Shown here in pieces: positions 1,369 through 43,304 of a stretch of 50,042 nucleotides of DNA. The notes under the pieces were generated by a model. The model was not told where the DNA came from. It did no database searches and was given only the letters and a program-made list of their open reading frames with translations. The DNA is from a virus (taxonomy: Duplodnaviria; Heunggongvirae; Uroviricota; Caudoviricetes): IMG/VR virus record IMGVR_UViG_640753025_000001, positions 1 to 50,042 of that record; one strand, 5' to 3'. The translations under genes and the position numbers were made by a program. Numbering within the stretch: the first letter of the stretch is position 1; every line of letters begins with the position of its first letter.

Positions 1369-1444
1369 GCCGATATAGCTCAGTTGGTAGAGCAGCGCAT
1401 TCGTAATGCGAAGGTCGTAGGTTCGACTCCTATTATCGGCACCA
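1369..1444 (+). tRNA. thrW: tRNA-Thr (anticodon CGU), thrW-type
   Basis: 76-nt sequence GCCGATATAGCTCAGTTGGTAGAGCAGCGCATTCGTAATGCGAAGGTCGTAGGTTCGACTCCTATTATCGGCACCA with encoded CCA end. Confidence 0.9.
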
Positions 1445-1447
1445 TTT
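1399..1447. repeat. attL core: 49-bp direct repeat covering the tRNA 3' end
   Basis: ATTCGTAATGCGAAGGTCGTAGGTTCGACTCCTATTATCGGCACCATTT is repeated exactly at 43256..43304; flanks diverge on both sides. Confidence 0.8.
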
Positions 1448-4103: not shown

Positions 4104-4796
4104 TCACTCTCCTTTGATGCGAATGCCAGCGGTGCGGGAATCATTCCATCGCTTTACTTCTTCACGAATTACGTCAATGCATTCTTTCGAATCCATTAGG
4201 TAATCTTCATCAAAAAGACGTTCCTGTTCGTTTTCTATCGCAACAATGATTGCTTCAACTAACTTTTGTGCCTGAGAATCACTTTCTAACTCTGCTATGC
4301 GCTTCTCTGCGGCTTCCAACTTCTCGCGCATATCGTCAACGTACTCGACCAGAGATCCGCCAGCAGGAATTTCGCACTCCTCGACCAGTTGGAAGTAGAT
4401 ATCAGCTGCGGCCCGTGTGTTGCTATGCCTAGCGTCGCCCATCTCACCTTCACGAAGAGCATCGCGTTCGGCGGTAAGATTGGCTATTTTGCTGTCTTTG
4501 CCTTCCAGCTCAACTCTCAGCTTCCCAACCGTAAGAGCAATATCCTCGTTCTCCTGGTCACGGCGTTTGATGTATTGCTGGTTTCTTTCCCGTTCATCCA
4601 GTAGTGCCAGCACGGTTTCTGGTCCGGCCAGAAATTTGAAGGCGTTGAGCGCATCAATATCCACACCGTAATCTTTAAGTTCCTGTTCACTTAACAAATC
4701 ATCATCAGCTGGCAACATTAACAGGCGTTCCATTGCTGGAATTGCACGTTCCGCCGCCTCACGTAGTGCCTGATAGTCAATTGTCATACTCGCCAT
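4104..4796 (-). CDS. Ea22-like coiled-coil protein
   Basis: 230-aa acidic ORF rich in heptad-like E/L/K segments; position matches lambdoid ea22; start may be 4787. Confidence 0.5.
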   Translation of the reverse strand: MASMTIDYQALREAAERAIPAMERLLMLPADDDLLSEQELKDYGVDIDALNAFKFLAGPETVLALLDERERNQQYIKRRDQENEDIALTVGKLRVELEGKDSKIANLTAERDALREGEMGDARHSNTRAAADIYFQLVEECEIPAGGSLVEYVDDMREKLEAAEKRIAELESDSQAQKLVEAIIVAIENEQERLFDEDYLMDSKECIDVIREEVKRWNDSRTAGIRIKGE

Positions 4797-5428
4797 CCCT
4801 CACAGTTGTAATCACTACAGCCTTCAAAATCATATGGGCTGTACTGCCAGGTGATTTTTCCGCAATGCGGACAATTCCAACGCACCTTCCCGCTTCGCGA
4901 CTTCTTTCTTCTGTTCTGCTCTTTCAACCAGTCAGGCATGACCAAACCTGCGCCCTGAACCATTGTTCTGCGGTTAAAGTTATTGATATTGAACGTCCGG
5001 CGCTTTGCTGCATCAGCAATGGAAAATGGCAACCAAACTATTCCTGGTTCGTTTTTGTTGGCGACGCTAAAGATGGTCGCTTTACTGAAGTCATCTGTTG
5101 GCAATCCACCGTGTTGAAGCCAGTAAACATCGTTGCCGTTCCAGCTACCTTTTTTGTAGGCCACATACGCAGTGCAATCTGACTCAATCAGGCTTTCTGT
5201 GGGGATGTACTGGCAATCAACGTGCCACACAGCCATTGCATCCACGCTATCAGCGCAAACAGGCTGATCGATATCTCGTCCACAATTCCAGGCTTTTTGG
5301 GCTTCTTCCAGCGTGTAAACATGAGCGCGATCGATATCAGAACTGTAACCATTGCCGTTATGGCAATGGAATGAGGCGTTATTACCCACAGTTTCACGCA
5401 AGCACATCATGTAAAAGCGGTTATTCAC
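4784..5428 (-). CDS. hypothetical Cys-rich phage protein
   Basis: 214-aa ORF with C-terminal CPHCG...CSDYNCEGW cysteine cluster; GTG start after AAAGGAGG. Confidence 0.5.
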
Positions 5429-5608: not shown

Positions 5609-5923
5609 TTAATTTATTCGTATGCCTGCTCTTTCTTCATCGAGTTTTTTTAGCTTGTATCGCATAGCCCTTACTGAATAAATTGAGCGGCAGGTTGCAA
5701 TTGCTATTTCTTCTGCGGAGAACTTACCGAAAAGTGATACTTCGGCTCTTGTCCATCGTCTTCCACGAAGTCGGCTAACAATGTCAGCGCCAATCCTTGT
5801 TGCTTTCGCCATTACTGCTTTTTCAGTCCTTTCCAGTTTTTCAGCGATAACTTCAACTGGCATTGTCGCCGCTACTTCGCGTAAGAAATCGACTTCCCAT
5901 TTCTCCCATGGATTCTTTTTCAT
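5609..5923 (-). CDS. hypothetical phage protein
   Basis: 104-aa basic ORF in early-left operon. Confidence 0.5.
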
Positions 5924-6325
5924 AGGCGATACCGTTATTTGATAAGAAGTGAAGGTTTCCCAACTTTGAGTTGAGCGCCGGGGATATTTATTCCTGCTTT
6001 TAGTTGGTGTTTGATTGCCAGTTTGTCGGCTTTAATTGTTGTTTCAAACTCAACGTATTCTGGAGGAAGGGCGCTTGAGTCGATGATTTCTACAGTTTCT
6101 GACGGTTTGCGGATTGTTACCTGGTGAATACCTGCTCGAATCTTTTTCTTTCCAACCATTTCAAGCGATGACGCTATATACGTCATAATGCTATCAATCT
6201 TATTTTGAATTACTGCTGCTCTTTCATTCAGTGACTTTGCCTCTTCCTTGAGGCGTTCAGCATAACCATGAATCGCCACGGGTTTAACAGACACCTCAGA
6301 GTCATTTAAGATGGCTTAAAGAGAG

Positions 6326-6610
6326 GTGCCCATGAGCGGTAAGCGTTATCCCGAAGAGTTTAAAACTGAAGCAGTCAAACAGGTTGTTGATCGCGGTTAT
6401 TCTGTTGCCAGCGTTGCAACACGTCTCGATATCACCACCCACAGCCTTTATGCCTGGATAAAGAAGTACGGTCCGGATTCTTCCACTAATAAAGAACAGT
6501 CAGATGCTCAGGCCGAGATCCGCCGTCTCCAGAAAGAGCTGAAACGGGTTACCGACGAACGGGACATATTAAAAAAAGCCGCGGCGTACTTCGCAAAGCT
6601 GTCCGACTGA
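6326..6610 (+). CDS. IS3-family transposase OrfA (HTH)
   Basis: 94-aa ORF; A-run (TTAAAAAAAGCC) near 3' end consistent with a -1 frameshift site. Confidence 0.9.
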   Translation: MPMSGKRYPEEFKTEAVKQVVDRGYSVASVATRLDITTHSLYAWIKKYGPDSSTNKEQSDAQAEIRRLQKELKRVTDERDILKKAAAYFAKLSD

Positions 6611-6666
6611 GGTACGCCTTTATCCGTGACAACTCCTGTTGCTGGCCTGTTCGCCTGCTCTGTCGG

Positions 6667-7479
6667 GTGCTGGATGTTCATCCCAGTGGTTTTTACGCCT
6701 GGCTTCAGCAGCCGCATTCACAACGCCATCAGGCAGACCTGAGACTGACAGGACAGATTAAACAGTTCTGGCTGGAATCGGGATGCGTCTATGGTTATCG
6801 CAAAATCCATCTGGATTTGCGTGACAGCGGGCAACAGTGCGGAGTAAACAGAGTCTGGAGACTGATGAAACGTGTCGGAATAAAGGCTCAGGTCGGATAC
6901 CGAAGCCCGCGGGCACGTAAAGGCGAGGCCAGTATCGTGTCACCCAACAGGCTCCAGCGACAGTTCAATCCGGATGCTCCTGATGAGCGTTGGGTAACGG
7001 ACATAACCTACATCAGGACCCACGAAGGCTGGCTGTATCTTGCCGTTGTTGTTGATCTGTTCTCACGCAAAATTATCGGCTGGTCCATGCAATCCCGGAT
7101 GACAAAGGACATTGTCCTGAACGCACTGCTGATGGCTGTATGGCGGCGTAATCCCGAAAAACAGGTGCTGGTTCATTCGGATCAGGGCAGTCAGTACACA
7201 AGCCATGAGTGGCAGTCGTTCCTGAAATCACACGGCCTGGAGGGTAGCATGAGCCGTCGCGGTAACTGCCATGATAATGCGGTTGCAGAAAGTTTTTTCC
7301 AGTTGTTGAAACGTGAACGGATAAAGAAAAAGATCTACGGAACGCGGGAAGAAGCCCGCAGTGATATTTTTGATTACATCGAAATGTTTTATAACAGTAA
7401 GCGTCGGCATGGTTCTAGCGAACAGATGTCACCGACAGAATATGAAAACCAGTATTATCAACGGCTCGGAAGTGTCTAG
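6667..7479 (+). CDS. IS3-family transposase OrfB (DDE catalytic domain)
   Basis: 270-aa ORF from first Met; expected expression as OrfAB fusion by frameshift. Confidence 0.9.
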   Translation: MLDVHPSGFYAWLQQPHSQRHQADLRLTGQIKQFWLESGCVYGYRKIHLDLRDSGQQCGVNRVWRLMKRVGIKAQVGYRSPRARKGEASIVSPNRLQRQFNPDAPDERWVTDITYIRTHEGWLYLAVVVDLFSRKIIGWSMQSRMTKDIVLNALLMAVWRRNPEKQVLVHSDQGSQYTSHEWQSFLKSHGLEGSMSRRGNCHDNAVAESFFQLLKRERIKKKIYGTREEARSDIFDYIEMFYNSKRRHGSSEQMSPTEYENQYYQRLGSV

Positions 7480-7632
7480 ATTATCCGTGGCGATTCACCA
7501 GACTCATTTTTAATAATGGCAAGAAGTTGCTCTATTTTATCGGTAAATTCTCCTTCCATGCCTTCTATTGTGTCAGCAATCATCTCTGGCTCTAAATCTG
7601 AATCCATCAATTTTGCGTATTCATTGGCAATT

Positions 7633-8535
7633 TCATACAGTTTGCTCACTGGCAACCTCCAGTTTCGCTTTGCATTCTGCGTAAATGGCTTGTATGTTCT
7701 GCTGCAATTTCATTCCAGATGTCAGGCGATATGCTTCTGCAAAATATCTCTTCAAATCATCCATGTTTTCAGCCTGAGTCATTTCATCACAAAGAAGTTG
7801 TGCTTTTTCCATTATTTCCTGCTGGCGTTTCCGTTCATCTTCGCGGATATCTTCCTCTGATTTGTGCGGCATAACTGGTTCCTGATGCATACCTTCATCT
7901 TCGTTAAGCAGGTGAATGGCATTATCCAGTCGCTGGGCTTTAGGCCAGTATTTGCTGGCGCGTTTAACTATTGTTTTACGTGCCATCTCTTCCCAGAATG
8001 TTTTCCACGGTCCATTCTTTGCCTTGCTCGTTGCTTCCACAGCTTTAATTTCTGCCAGACTCATTTCTTCAGTCAGGTAGTCACCATCTGCTGTTTTAAC
8101 CGTACAATAACCACCAACAATAGAGCCTCGCTCACCAAATGCGTTGTATTTGTGGGTTGGTGCTGAATCAAGGCCATTTGATTCATAGGTGTCGTTTGAG
8201 TACACCAGTTTGCATTGCCCCCACTTAATTGATCCTGTCGATTGCGCAAGATGAAGTAACCCCATGTAACTGATATCAAGGCAAACCATGCCGTCGCGCG
8301 GAACCAGATAAGCCAGTTTGCTAGCCGGGTTTAAGGTGATACCGATCGCCGCAACATTGATGATGGCGTTCTGTGCGCTGGTTGGATTTGCCAGTGCCGT
8401 TTTAGCCAGGTAATCATTTTTCTGGAAATACTGAATTGCAAACTGGCTTTCCTTAGCCCATGTCACCGTCTGTTCAGTCAATGCTCCGCAGAATAACTGC
8501 TCCTGCTGTTTAACGAATTCAACGATATTGCTCAT
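7633..8535 (-). CDS. recT: recombinase RecT
   Basis: 300-aa ORF recognised as RecT family single-strand annealing protein. Confidence 0.88.
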   Translation of the reverse strand: MSNIVEFVKQQEQLFCGALTEQTVTWAKESQFAIQYFQKNDYLAKTALANPTSAQNAIINVAAIGITLNPASKLAYLVPRDGMVCLDISYMGLLHLAQSTGSIKWGQCKLVYSNDTYESNGLDSAPTHKYNAFGERGSIVGGYCTVKTADGDYLTEEMSLAEIKAVEATSKAKNGPWKTFWEEMARKTIVKRASKYWPKAQRLDNAIHLLNEDEGMHQEPVMPHKSEEDIREDERKRQQEIMEKAQLLCDEMTQAENMDDLKRYFAEAYRLTSGMKLQQNIQAIYAECKAKLEVASEQTV

Positions 8536-8843
8536 GCTGCTTCTCCATAAATGTGTCTGCGTTTGAATATTGCGAAGGCATATTCAGCCTTAACTCTTTC
8601 GTTTATTGCATCCCAGAACCATTCAGCGGCTTTTTCCTGATAGTTACAGTCATCATCTTCCAGCCAGTCGATAGCGTCCTTAGTGTGTTCATCTGGTTTA
8701 TATGAGCGAAGCATTTCGCTTATTGGGTCGCAACGTTTGCAGAGACGATCAACTTCACTGTTGATTCGTTCGTAATCTTCATCAGTAAAACTTGCGATTA
8801 TTTGCGATATTTCACGCTTATCATTCAGAGTCAGAATCATCAT
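8532..8843 (-). CDS. hypothetical phage protein
   Basis: 103-aa ORF overlapping recT start by 4 nt. Confidence 0.5.
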   Translation of the reverse strand: MMILTLNDKREISQIIASFTDEDYERINSEVDRLCKRCDPISEMLRSYKPDEHTKDAIDWLEDDDCNYQEKAAEWFWDAINERVKAEYAFAIFKRRHIYGEAA

Positions 8844-37407: not shown

Positions 37408-38143
37408 TTGGTGCGCCGGACGGCGCAAAAAGAAAACCGCCAGTGTGCTGCTGGCGGCCTATGTCACACCCTTACTACCACATAAGGAATGCCTAATGAC
37501 TTTGAAGAATGTAGCAAACATCGGATCCGTTGTCACGGATAAAACCATTGACAGCCAAAGTCTTCTGATGATGGTTAATGAAGCTCGCAAGTTATGTGGA
37601 GAGCCATCAGTACGTAACAACAAATTCATCGAGAAAATTGAGGATGAATTGGAGGGCGAGACCTACACAAAAAGTGTAGGTCGGAAAAACGGGGCTGACA
37701 TTGATGTTATCTCCATGACTATCAAGCAGGCGCTTCGTGTTGCTGCTCGCGAATCTAAAGCAGTTCGCCGAACACTTGTAGACAAACTTGAAAGTATGCA
37801 AGAAGCGCACATTAAAAGCGGTAAATCGTCGAGTGGACTTGTTGAGTATCGCCAGGCTCGAACATTGAAAATGACGGTTGAAGCTGTTACCAATCTGTTA
37901 GATTTGATGCCAAATCTTGCGCCGGAAGCAAAGCAGACTGCGGCAGCAAGCATAATCAACCCGATAGTTGGTTTTAATGCAATACCTCTTCCAGCAATAG
38001 AAGAGCATTACTACTCAGCAGGGGAGGTTGCAGAGCAGCTTGGAGTAACGGCAAACAAGATTGGTCGCATTGCTAACGCAAACAACTGAATCGCCACGGG
38101 TTTAACAGACACCTCAGAGTCATTTAAGATGGCTTAAAGAGAG

Positions 38144-38428
38144 GTGCCCATGAGCGGTAAGCGTTATCCCGAAGAGTTTAAAACTGAAGCAGTCAAACAG
38201 GTTGTTGATCGCGGTTATTCTGTTGCCAGCGTTGCAACACGTCTCGATATCACCACCCACAGCCTTTATGCCTGGATAAAGAAGTACGGTCCGGATTCTT
38301 CCACTAATAAAGAACAGTCAGATGCTCAGGCCGAGATCCGCCGTCTCCAGAAAGAGCTGAAACGGGTTACCGACGAACGGGACATATTAAAAAAAGCCGC
38401 GGCGTACTTCGCAAAGCTGTCCGACTGA
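38144..38428 (+). CDS. IS3-family transposase OrfA
   Basis: Identical protein to 6326..6610. Confidence 0.9.
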   Translation: MPMSGKRYPEEFKTEAVKQVVDRGYSVASVATRLDITTHSLYAWIKKYGPDSSTNKEQSDAQAEIRRLQKELKRVTDERDILKKAAAYFAKLSD

Positions 38429-38484
38429 GGTACGCCTTTATCCGTGACAACTCCTGTTGCTGGCCTGTTCGCCTGCTCTGTCGG

Positions 38485-39297
38485 GTGCTGGATGTTCATC
38501 CCAGTGGTTTTTACGCCTGGCTTCAGCAGCCGCATTCACAACGCCATCAGGCAGACCTGAGACTGACAGGACAGATTAAACAGTTCTGGCTGGAATCGGG
38601 ATGCGTCTATGGTTATCGCAAAATCCATCTGGATTTGCGTGACAGCGGGCAACAGTGCGGAGTAAACAGAGTCTGGAGACTGATGAAACGTGTCGGAATA
38701 AAGGCTCAGGTCGGATACCGAAGCCCGCGGGCACGTAAAGGCGAGGCCAGTATCGTGTCACCCAACAGGCTCCAGCGACAGTTCAATCCGGATGCTCCTG
38801 ATGAGCGTTGGGTAACGGACATAACCTACATCAGGACCCACGAAGGCTGGCTGTATCTTGCCGTTGTTGTTGATCTGTTCTCACGCAAAATTATCGGCTG
38901 GTCCATGCAATCCCGGATGACAAAGGACATTGTCCTGAACGCACTGCTGATGGCTGTATGGCGGCGTAATCCCGAAAAACAGGTGCTGGTTCATTCGGAT
39001 CAGGGCAGTCAGTACACAAGCCATGAGTGGCAGTCGTTCCTGAAATCACACGGCCTGGAGGGTAGCATGAGCCGTCGCGGTAACTGCCATGATAATGCGG
39101 TTGCAGAAAGTTTTTTCCAGTTGTTGAAACGTGAACGGATAAAGAAAAAGATCTACGGAACGCGGGAAGAAGCCCGCAGTGATATTTTTGATTACATCGA
39201 AATGTTTTATAACAGTAAGCGTCGGCATGGTTCTAGCGAACAGATGTCACCGACAGAATATGAAAACCAGTATTATCAACGGCTCGGAAGTGTCTAG
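38485..39297 (+). CDS. IS3-family transposase OrfB
   Basis: Identical protein to 6667..7479. Confidence 0.9.
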   Translation: MLDVHPSGFYAWLQQPHSQRHQADLRLTGQIKQFWLESGCVYGYRKIHLDLRDSGQQCGVNRVWRLMKRVGIKAQVGYRSPRARKGEASIVSPNRLQRQFNPDAPDERWVTDITYIRTHEGWLYLAVVVDLFSRKIIGWSMQSRMTKDIVLNALLMAVWRRNPEKQVLVHSDQGSQYTSHEWQSFLKSHGLEGSMSRRGNCHDNAVAESFFQLLKRERIKKKIYGTREEARSDIFDYIEMFYNSKRRHGSSEQMSPTEYENQYYQRLGSV

Positions 39298-39471
39298 ATT
39301 ATCCGTGGCGATTCAAACCTCAAAACTGAGCAGTACGGGAAGTTCTTCCTGGATAAATCGGCGCATTCCAGCAAACAGGTAGAGGCGTTCCGTTACAATT
39401 CTGAAGGCGTTAAAGCACTACAACACCTGCTACATGGCTCAAATGTGGCGTAACATTTTATAATGAAAACT

Positions 39472-43255: not shown

Positions 43256-43304
43256 ATTCGTAATGCGAAGGTCGTAGGTTCGACTCCTATTATCGGCACC
43301 ATTT
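43256..43304. repeat. attR core: 49-bp direct repeat (displaced 3' part of thrW)
   Basis: Exact copy of 1399..1447. Confidence 0.8.

What the first reader, a model, noticed from the sequence alone, without database searches (positions are those of the whole stretch)
5935..7649. IS copy 1 cleanly interrupts the Gp157-like gene next to recT
Removing the IS and one CCA restores a continuous ~160-aa frame that starts at GTG 7649 (GGAGG RBS) overlapping the recT stop. In situ the frame hits a stop a few codons into the IS. The RecT partner gene is therefore inactivated, and no exonuclease of lambda Exo/RecE size is present next to recT.
Basis: seen in the sequence. Interest (0 to 1): 0.4.

Follow-up and report, generated by a model that had tools for sequence, protein, structure and literature searches.

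The report
IS-disrupted Gp157 gene beside recT
A common 1.2-kb insertion sequence has recently and cleanly split the small Gp157-family gene that follows recT in the P22-like prophage of E. coli HS, an ordinary pseudogene that public annotation already marks.

Summary
A 1229-bp IS3-family element (6269-7497) sits in the gene after recT. It has 13-bp perfect terminal inverted repeats and a 3-bp target duplication (CCA at 6266-6268 and 7498-7500). Removing the IS and one CCA gives a 160-aa ORF from GTG 7649. That ORF matches Pfam Sipho_Gp157 over its full length and is 483/483 nt identical to an intact gene in E. coli ETEC1701.

The window is E. coli HS, in the P22-like prophage at thrW. RefSeq already annotates two Gp157 pseudogene fragments around an IS3 transposase. 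Only HS assemblies carry the insertion; 291 other complete E. coli genomes hold the full-length gene.

The interpretation needs correcting. The lack of an exonuclease is native to this module: the viable phage HK140 and three Serratia prophages have the same nuclease-free cassette, and six more phage records annotate the RecT-Gp157 pair. A 2025 survey classes HK140's module as an annealase plus a MuGam-type anti-RecBCD protein with no nuclease. What was probably lost is therefore end protection, not resection. My own tests of Mu Gam homology were inconclusive. A 2026 preprint shows the prophage still induces and forms virions. Low interest.

The parts
8532..8843 (-). First gene of the conserved cassette: an acidic 103-aa protein of unknown function, translationally coupled to recT
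   Evidence: PHROG 3486, E 1.6e-58. It has no Pfam or NCBIfam hit. A gene of about the same size sits in the same position in ETEC1701 and HK140 (309 nt) and in Serratia prophages (100 aa).
7633..8535 (-). recT, intact 300-aa single-strand annealing protein
   Evidence: Pfam RecT 115.9 bits and PHROG 148 E 1.9e-91. It carries the same protein accession, WP_000065850.1, as the copy in ETEC1701.
7476..7649 (-). In-situ N-terminal stub of the Gp157 gene: GTG 7649, 51 native codons, then 6 IS-encoded codons (ESPRII) and TAG
   Evidence: Translation. PGAP marks it as a pseudogene fragment 'siphovirus Gp157 family protein, missing C-terminus'.
7498..7500 (.). Right copy of the 3-bp target-site duplication (CCA on + strand, TGG in gene sense)
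6269..7497 (+). IS3-family insertion sequence, 1229 bp, with its transposase antisense to the prophage early-left operon
   Evidence: It has 13-bp perfect terminal inverted repeats. It encodes orfA (HTH_Tnp_1, ORF 6326-6610) and orfB (rve, ORF 6667-7479). The NCBIfam IS3 transposase model scores 338.6 bits against a cut-off of 160. The slippery run AAAAAAAG starts at 6571, and PGAP annotates a 'programmed frameshift'. An identical copy lies at 38087-39315.
6266..6268 (.). Left copy of the 3-bp target-site duplication (CCA)
5935..6267 (-). C-terminal remnant of the Gp157 gene (codons 51-160 plus stop). It lies inside a 119-codon ORF that opens at GTG 6294 within the IS end.
   Evidence: tblastn aligns residues 51-160 at 100% identity. 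PGAP marks it as a pseudogene fragment 'missing N-terminus'.
5609..5923 (-). Last gene of the cassette: a 104-aa protein directly downstream of the interrupted gene and therefore exposed to any polar effect of the IS
   Evidence: PHROG 11492 and PHROG 323 ('transcriptional regulator, D5-like'). A gene of 95-120 aa sits in the same position in HK140, ETEC1701 and Serratia prophages. It is weakly similar to Mu gp9, the gene next to Mu gam.

Best explanation
An IS3-family insertion sequence transposed into codon 50/51 of the Gp157-family gene that follows recT in the early-left (pL) operon of the P22-like prophage of E. coli HS. A 2026 preprint names this prophage phiHS4.

Shown:
- The insertion duplicated 3 bp.
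- It leaves a 57-aa stub and a promoter-distal C-terminal remnant.
- It has not been followed by any further mutation of the gene.

The gene belongs to a four-gene cassette (103-aa protein, RecT, Gp157, ~104-aa protein) that moves as a unit among lambdoid and P22-like phages. The cassette never includes a nuclease in the copies examined.

Inferred:
- Gp157 is the module's DNA-end-binding, RecBCD-blocking component of the Mu Gam kind. It would be analogous in role to lambda Gam or P22 Abc2.
- The prophage therefore keeps its annealase but has lost protection of linear DNA ends (rolling-circle tails, injected chromosomes) against host RecBCD.
- The expected consequence is a growth handicap like that of lambda gam or P22 abc mutants, not lethality.
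For: Anatomy and clean restoration.

Family assignment:
- Pfam Sipho_Gp157 E 1.2e-36 over the full length.
- PHROG 253 'Mu Gam-like end protection' E 5.7e-53.
- The family has 12,112 cluster representatives, mostly about 160 aa long.

Intact copies and recency:
- 100% nucleotide identity to the intact ETEC1701 gene; 291 E. coli genomes carry the full-length gene.
- The insertion is found only in HS assemblies. RefSeq annotates the two pseudogene halves.

Nuclease-free cassette:
- It is present in viable phage HK140 and in three different Serratia prophages.
- Six other phage records (mEpX1, Gally, Dewey, Kapi1, vB_EcoP-683R2, vB_EcoP-611R6) annotate the RecT-Gp157 pair under the match.
- Zheng et al. 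2025 class the HK140 module as SAP-4 with MuGam anti-RecBCD and no nuclease (PMC12315714).

Partners vary: distant Gp157 relatives sit directly after an ERF-family annealase or a RecT. This fits a generic accessory role in recombination modules.

Non-lethality: phiHS4 still replicates, excises, packages DNA and forms virions after mitomycin C (bioRxiv 10.64898/2026.05.19.726188).
Against: The functional label rests mostly on others' classification.
- The Pfam Mu Gam model scored 17.3 bits, below its 28.3-bit cut-off. Only 7 of 52 relatives hit it at E <= 0.1.
- Profile-profile comparison with a shallow Mu Gam alignment gave 43% probability over 52 C-terminal columns.
- Foldseek and PDB sequence searches found nothing.
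- No experiment on any Gp157 protein was found in the papers searched.
- One distant member (L014) has no annealase in the 4 kb searched on each side.
Confidence: 0.85

Rival explanations
1. Gp157 is RecT's nuclease partner, or substitutes for an exonuclease. On this reading the IS has removed the resection step of a two-component Exo/RecT-type recombinase.
For: It is translationally coupled to recT with a 17-nt overlap and is a conserved neighbour of recT. This is the position that exo or recE genes take in other modules.
Against: - It matches no nuclease family in Pfam, PHROGs or NCBIfam.
- The confident model (pLDDT 95.7) is a 68-residue helix plus a small C-terminal domain, not a nuclease fold.
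- The literature classes it as a MuGam-type anti-RecBCD protein and notes that this annealase type works without a phage nuclease.
- It also pairs with an ERF annealase.
Confidence: 0.03
2. Gp157 has another role unrelated to RecBCD or DNA ends, for example an annealase loader or scaffold, or a phage-exclusion function. The functional loss would then differ from the one proposed.
For: My homology tests against Mu Gam were all sub-threshold or inconclusive. One source names a member (P0078) 'resistance protein'. Some members have no annealase neighbour.
Against: - The PHROG label and the independent classification by Zheng et al. agree on the Mu Gam type.
- The gene sits inside recombination modules with two unrelated annealase families.
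Confidence: 0.25
3. The gene is not really inactivated. The 119-codon ORF starting at GTG 6294 inside the IS end would yield a working N-terminally truncated protein, or rare precise IS excision would restore function in a subpopulation.
For: The ORF exists and carries native residues 51-160 in frame. The remnant has no secondary mutations, so precise excision would restore a perfect gene.
Against: - The truncation removes residues 1-50, which hold 13 of the 39 columns invariant among 52 relatives, and a third of the long helix.
- No Shine-Dalgarno sequence lies at a usable distance before GTG 6294 (sequence).
- Promoter-like sites in the region are no more frequent than in shuffles.
- All three HS assemblies keep the IS.
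Confidence: 0.04

Closest known systems
Rec module of Enterobacteria phage HK140 (gp41 RecT, gp40 'Mu Gam-like end protection'); also mEpX1, Gally and Kapi1
   Same: The same four-gene cassette is seen in the same order and early-left position in HK140. The Gp157 gene is 94-97.5% identical at the nucleotide level across the 14 phage records. The HK140 module has no nuclease and no SSB, and Zheng et al. 2025 class it as annealase SAP-4 plus MuGam anti-RecBCD.
   Different: In the window the Gp157 gene is split by an IS. The surrounding phage is P22-like (podovirus structural genes), whereas HK140 belongs to Hendrixvirinae, as its record's taxonomy line states.
Bacteriophage Mu Gam / Ku-type DNA-end-binding proteins (Pfam PF07352; solved homologue 2p2u)
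Lambda Gam and P22 Abc2 (anti-RecBCD genes of Red and Erf modules)
   Same: They have the same place and presumed role in the early-left recombination module: neutralising RecBCD so that annealase-driven recombination and rolling-circle replication can proceed.
   Different: They are unrelated in sequence and mechanism. [quoted passage not shown]
Ordinary IS3-family insertional pseudogenes in prophages
   Same: It shows TG...CA terminal repeats, a 3-bp duplication, two-ORF frameshifted transposase, and multiple identical copies in the genome. There are 12 matching places in the HS chromosome, and matches of any length in 2762 of 5426 E. coli genomes and in 2744 plasmid records.
   Different: Nothing unusual was found. 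From memory the element resembles ISEhe3 (1229 bp), but the tools name it only 'IS3 family'.

Membership tests
Siphovirus Gp157 family (Pfam PF05565) | Full-length match to the family model above the curated cut-off | tested here: met
   The restored ORF scores 126.6 bits against a 28.6-bit cut-off, over model positions 1-162 of 162. All 52 aligned relatives also match.
Siphovirus Gp157 family (Pfam PF05565) | Typical length of about 160 aa | tested here: met
   The restored ORF is 160 aa. Most close relatives are 160 aa, and most of the 150 listed distant representatives are 152-186 aa, apart from a few shorter fragments and one of 233 aa.
Mu Gam / Ku-like host-nuclease inhibitor (Pfam PF07352) | Match to the family model above the curated cut-off | tested here: not met
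   17.3 bits against a 28.3-bit cut-off, E 0.0047. Only 7 of 52 relatives hit at E <= 0.1.
Mu Gam / Ku-like host-nuclease inhibitor (Pfam PF07352) | Profile-profile homology to Mu Gam | tested here: inconclusive
   hhalign of a 143-sequence Gp157 alignment against a shallow 15-sequence Mu Gam alignment gave probability 43% and E 2.5e-4, over 52 collinear C-terminal columns. The Mu Gam profile had little diversity.
Mu Gam / Ku-like host-nuclease inhibitor (Pfam PF07352) | Fold similarity to a solved Gam structure (2p2u) | tested here: inconclusive
Mu Gam / Ku-like host-nuclease inhibitor (Pfam PF07352) | Binds dsDNA ends as a dimer and blocks RecBCD | not testable with these tools
   This needs biochemistry or genetics. 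The classification as MuGam type comes from PHROGs and Zheng et al. 2025.
IS3 family insertion sequence | DDE (rve) transposase matching the IS3 model above cut-off | tested here: met
   NCBIfam NF033516 scores 338.6 bits against a cut-off of 160. Pfam rve and HTH_21 also match.
IS3 family insertion sequence | Two overlapping ORFs joined by a programmed -1 frameshift at an A-rich slippery site | tested here: met
   orfA lies in ORF 6326-6610 and orfB in ORF 6667-7479. AAAAAAAG starts at 6571. PGAP annotates a 'programmed frameshift'.
IS3 family insertion sequence | Terminal inverted repeats ending TG...CA and a short (3-bp) target duplication | tested here: met
   The repeats are 13 bp and perfect. 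The duplications are CCA (copy 1) and AAC (copy 2).
Lambdoid Rec module of the annealase + anti-RecBCD, nuclease-free type (Zheng et al. 2025) | Contiguous cluster in the early-left operon with an annealase, an anti-RecBCD gene, and no nuclease or SSB | tested here: met
   The position is between the repressor and int. RecT is present. No nuclease or SSB family hit was found among the ORFs scanned between 3461 and 9539. The anti-RecBCD slot is filled only by the disrupted Gp157 gene.

The most novel reading that the evidence does not exclude
The IS insertions may explain why phiHS4 is inducible and makes virions yet forms no plaques on any host tested, including the cured HS strain. Two routes are possible.

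- Loss of the MuGam-type end-protection gene could leave injected, headful-packaged linear DNA and rolling-circle tails open to RecBCD.
- The two IS copies add 2,464 bp to a 41,857-bp prophage unit and may erode the terminal redundancy needed for circularisation.

The preprint does not consider the IS insertions.
Probability: 0.12. Interest if true: 0.4.

Novelty: already known. Interest (0 to 1): 0.15.

Why it matters
It matters little in general. This is one more IS-made pseudogene in a prophage, already flagged in RefSeq, in a module type described in 2025.

It has some local value for people who use E. coli HS as a gut-colonisation model.
- The resident P22-like prophage phiHS4 carries an intact RecT but a broken companion gene. 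That gives a natural knockout, with an exact intact allele available in ETEC1701, for testing what Gp157 proteins do. The family is very large (more than 12,000 cluster representatives), and I found no experimental work on it.
- The same IS copy is also an endpoint of a ~60-kb deletion in one laboratory HS lineage. That deletion removes most of the prophage and the BREX island, which matters for strain provenance.

Tried and rejected
- Sequence search of the restored protein and of a 143-sequence profile against PDB chains gave only coiled-coil noise.
- Foldseek against the PDB gave nothing significant.
- A database search with Mu Gam returned only close relatives (at least 72% identity). The Mu Gam profile was therefore too shallow for a decisive profile-profile test.
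- The promoter and terminator scan of 5800-7800 gave counts no higher than shuffles. Nothing can be said about polarity or outward transcription from the IS.
- The 214-aa downstream protein (4784-5428) was checked as a possible hidden nuclease. It has no Pfam, NCBIfam or PDB match.
- Supplementary tables of Zheng et al. are not held.
- The IS could not be named beyond 'IS3 family'.
- An assembly artefact was rejected, because three HS assemblies agree.

Full report
**1. The observation**

Read on the minus strand, recT (7633-8535) is followed by GGAGG, six bases, and GTG at 7649, which overlaps the recT stop by 17 nt.

The frame runs for 51 codons and then enters a 1229-bp element at 6269-7497.
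- The element has perfect 13-bp terminal inverted repeats (TGAATCGCCACGG).
- It is flanked by a direct 3-bp duplication, CCA at 6266-6268 and 7498-7500.
- In situ the frame reads six IS-encoded codons (ESPRII) and stops.

Deleting the element and one CCA gives a 160-codon ORF ending at 5935-5937.

A second copy of the element lies at 38087-39315. It is identical at every base and has its own duplication, AAC.

**2. What the pieces are**

The element encodes an HTH_Tnp_1 orfA and an rve-domain orfB. orfB matches NCBI's IS3 transposase model well above cut-off. The slippery run AAAAAAAG starts at 6571.

The restored 160-aa protein has two clear family matches.
- It matches Pfam Sipho_Gp157 end to end (126.6 bits against a cut-off of 28.6).
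- It matches PHROG 253, which PHROGs label 'Mu Gam-like end protection' (E 5.7e-53).

A profile search of 1.84 billion cluster representatives finds 12,112 relatives at E <= 0.001, most of them about 160 aa long.

**3. Where the window comes from, and how common the intact gene is**

The interrupted locus matches E. coli HS at 100% identity, and the window equals record NZ_CP185286.1 offset by 1,023,010. The element lies in a P22-like prophage integrated at tRNA-Thr next to proA. The prophage is bounded by 49-bp repeats at 1399-1447 and 43256-43304.

RefSeq already annotates two 'siphovirus Gp157 family protein' pseudogene fragments on either side of an 'IS3 family transposase'.

The restored gene is 483/483 identical to an intact gene in E. 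coli ETEC1701. Of the 298 complete E. coli genomes with a match, 291 hold the full-length gene, and in all 30 listed it lies next to a RecT-type recombinase gene. Only three records, all strain HS, carry the insertion.

The event is therefore recent, lineage-specific, and unaccompanied by further decay. tblastn finds no second copy in the window. No E. coli genome has more than two near-identical places, and HS's two fragments should account for its two.

**4. The missing exonuclease**

Phage HK140 carries the same ordered cassette in its early-left operon: a 103-aa protein, RecT, Gp157 and a ~104-aa protein. Nothing annotated as a nuclease lies in that operon. Six further phage records (mEpX1, Gally, Dewey, Kapi1, vB_EcoP-683R2, vB_EcoP-611R6) annotate the RecT-Gp157 pair under the match.

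Three different Serratia prophages hold the same cassette in otherwise different operons. One of them also has an HNH-type gene two genes upstream of recT.

In the window, the ORFs scanned between 3461 and 9539 have no nuclease match in Pfam, PHROGs or NCBIfam.

Zheng, Casjens, Davidson, Amundsen and Smith (Genome Res 2025, PMC12315714) surveyed 325 lambdoid phages. They state that annealase type SAP-4 functions with no phage nuclease and with a MuGam-type anti-RecBCD protein in HK140. They also count 84 Rec modules that lack a nuclease.

The absence of an Exo/RecE-size gene is thus the native design of this module, not part of the damage.

**5. What Gp157 does**

Support for an end-binding, RecBCD-blocking role comes from several sources.
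- The PHROG label and the Zheng et al. classification agree.
- The sub-threshold Pfam match to Phage_Mu_Gam is collinear (positions 29-147 of 149).
- An hhalign match to a Mu Gam profile covers 52 C-terminal columns (probability 43%, E 2.5e-4).

Evidence against a firm assignment:
- Only 7 of 52 relatives touch the Mu Gam model at E <= 0.1.
- Foldseek and PDB sequence searches are empty.

I therefore file the protein as a Gp157-family member. The Mu Gam relationship is likely but was not demonstrated here.

Context adds one useful point. Distant family members sit directly after an ERF-family annealase (4-nt overlap), after a RecT, before an SSB, or with none of these. The protein is thus an accessory of recombination modules in general rather than a RecT-specific subunit.

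**6. Consequence**

RecT is intact and carries the same protein accession as in ETEC1701. The prophage keeps annealing activity but has lost the companion function.

By analogy with lambda gam and P22 abc mutants (my knowledge), I expect reduced growth in recBCD+ hosts rather than lethality.

A 2026 preprint (bioRxiv 10.64898/2026.05.19.726188) names this prophage phiHS4.
- After mitomycin C it amplifies and is packaged.
- It forms podovirus particles, and a cured strain is readily obtained.
- It gives no plaques on cured HS, K-12 or the ECOR collection.
- The preprint does not mention the IS insertions beyond masking them for read coverage.

Whether the Gp157 knockout or the 2,464 bp of added IS DNA contributes to the plating failure is open. 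I give it a low probability.

**7. Verdict**

The finding is real and ordinary: an IS3-family insertional pseudogene, already annotated, in a described module type.

It is wrong in treating the missing exonuclease as notable.

Noticed in passing
window 38087-39315 (flanks 37496-38086 and 39319 onward): The second, identical IS copy (duplication AAC) splits a gene near the arc gene and upstream of the tailspike gene. In-silico excision restores a 241-aa ORF, whereas in situ it stops at 197 aa.
   Followed up: partly
window 6269-7497; record NZ_CP092639.1 (locus L010) and NZ_CP185286.1 1089517-1090664 (locus L011): A Zurich laboratory assembly of HS joins the Gp157 C-terminal fragment and this IS directly to a truncated fimbrial (ecp-operon) gene. 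The parent genome has a third, same-orientation IS copy about 60.2 kb away beside that gene. Recombination between the two copies has therefore deleted recT, the rest of the prophage and the BREX island in that lineage.
   Followed up: partly
window 5609-5923 (-) and phage Mu 5482-5781 (L005): The 104-aa gene just downstream of Gp157 is weakly similar to Mu gp9 (BLASTP E 5e-5, 32% identity over 44 aa). Mu gp9 lies immediately upstream of Mu gam. Mu gp9 is annotated 'transcriptional regulator, D5-like', the description of PHROG 323 that the window gene matches. This may be a conserved gene pair.
   Followed up: partly
window 8532-8843 (-): An acidic 103-aa protein (PHROG 3486, no Pfam or NCBIfam hit) is translationally coupled to recT. 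A gene of about the same size travels with the cassette in E. coli phages and Serratia prophages. Its function is unknown, and it could be another module component.
   Followed up: no
loci L013 (2-1116), L009 (3-1108), L012 (211-1128), L014: Distant Gp157 relatives follow an ERF-family annealase (4-nt overlap) or a RecT, or precede an SSB. One sits near primase- and VapE-like genes with no annealase in the 4 kb searched on each side.
   Followed up: partly
window 1399-1447 and 43256-43304: 49-bp direct repeats from the 3' part of tRNA-Thr bound the prophage. One unit is 41,857 bp, of which 2,464 bp is the two IS copies plus their duplications. For a headful packager this shrinks the terminal redundancy. 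A second integrase gene and the BREX island follow directly after the right repeat.
   Followed up: no
whole prophage, window about 1399-43304: A 2026 preprint names this prophage phiHS4. It reports mitomycin C induction, packaged DNA, podovirus particles and easy curing, but no plaques on any host tested. The IS insertions are not considered as a cause.
   Followed up: partly
window 6269-7497: The same IS is widespread. Full or partial matches occur at 12 places in the HS chromosome, in 2762 of 5426 complete E. coli genomes, and in 2744 plasmid records across Escherichia, Klebsiella, Enterobacter, Citrobacter, Pantoea and others. 706 plasmid records hold at least 80% of its length.
   Followed up: partly
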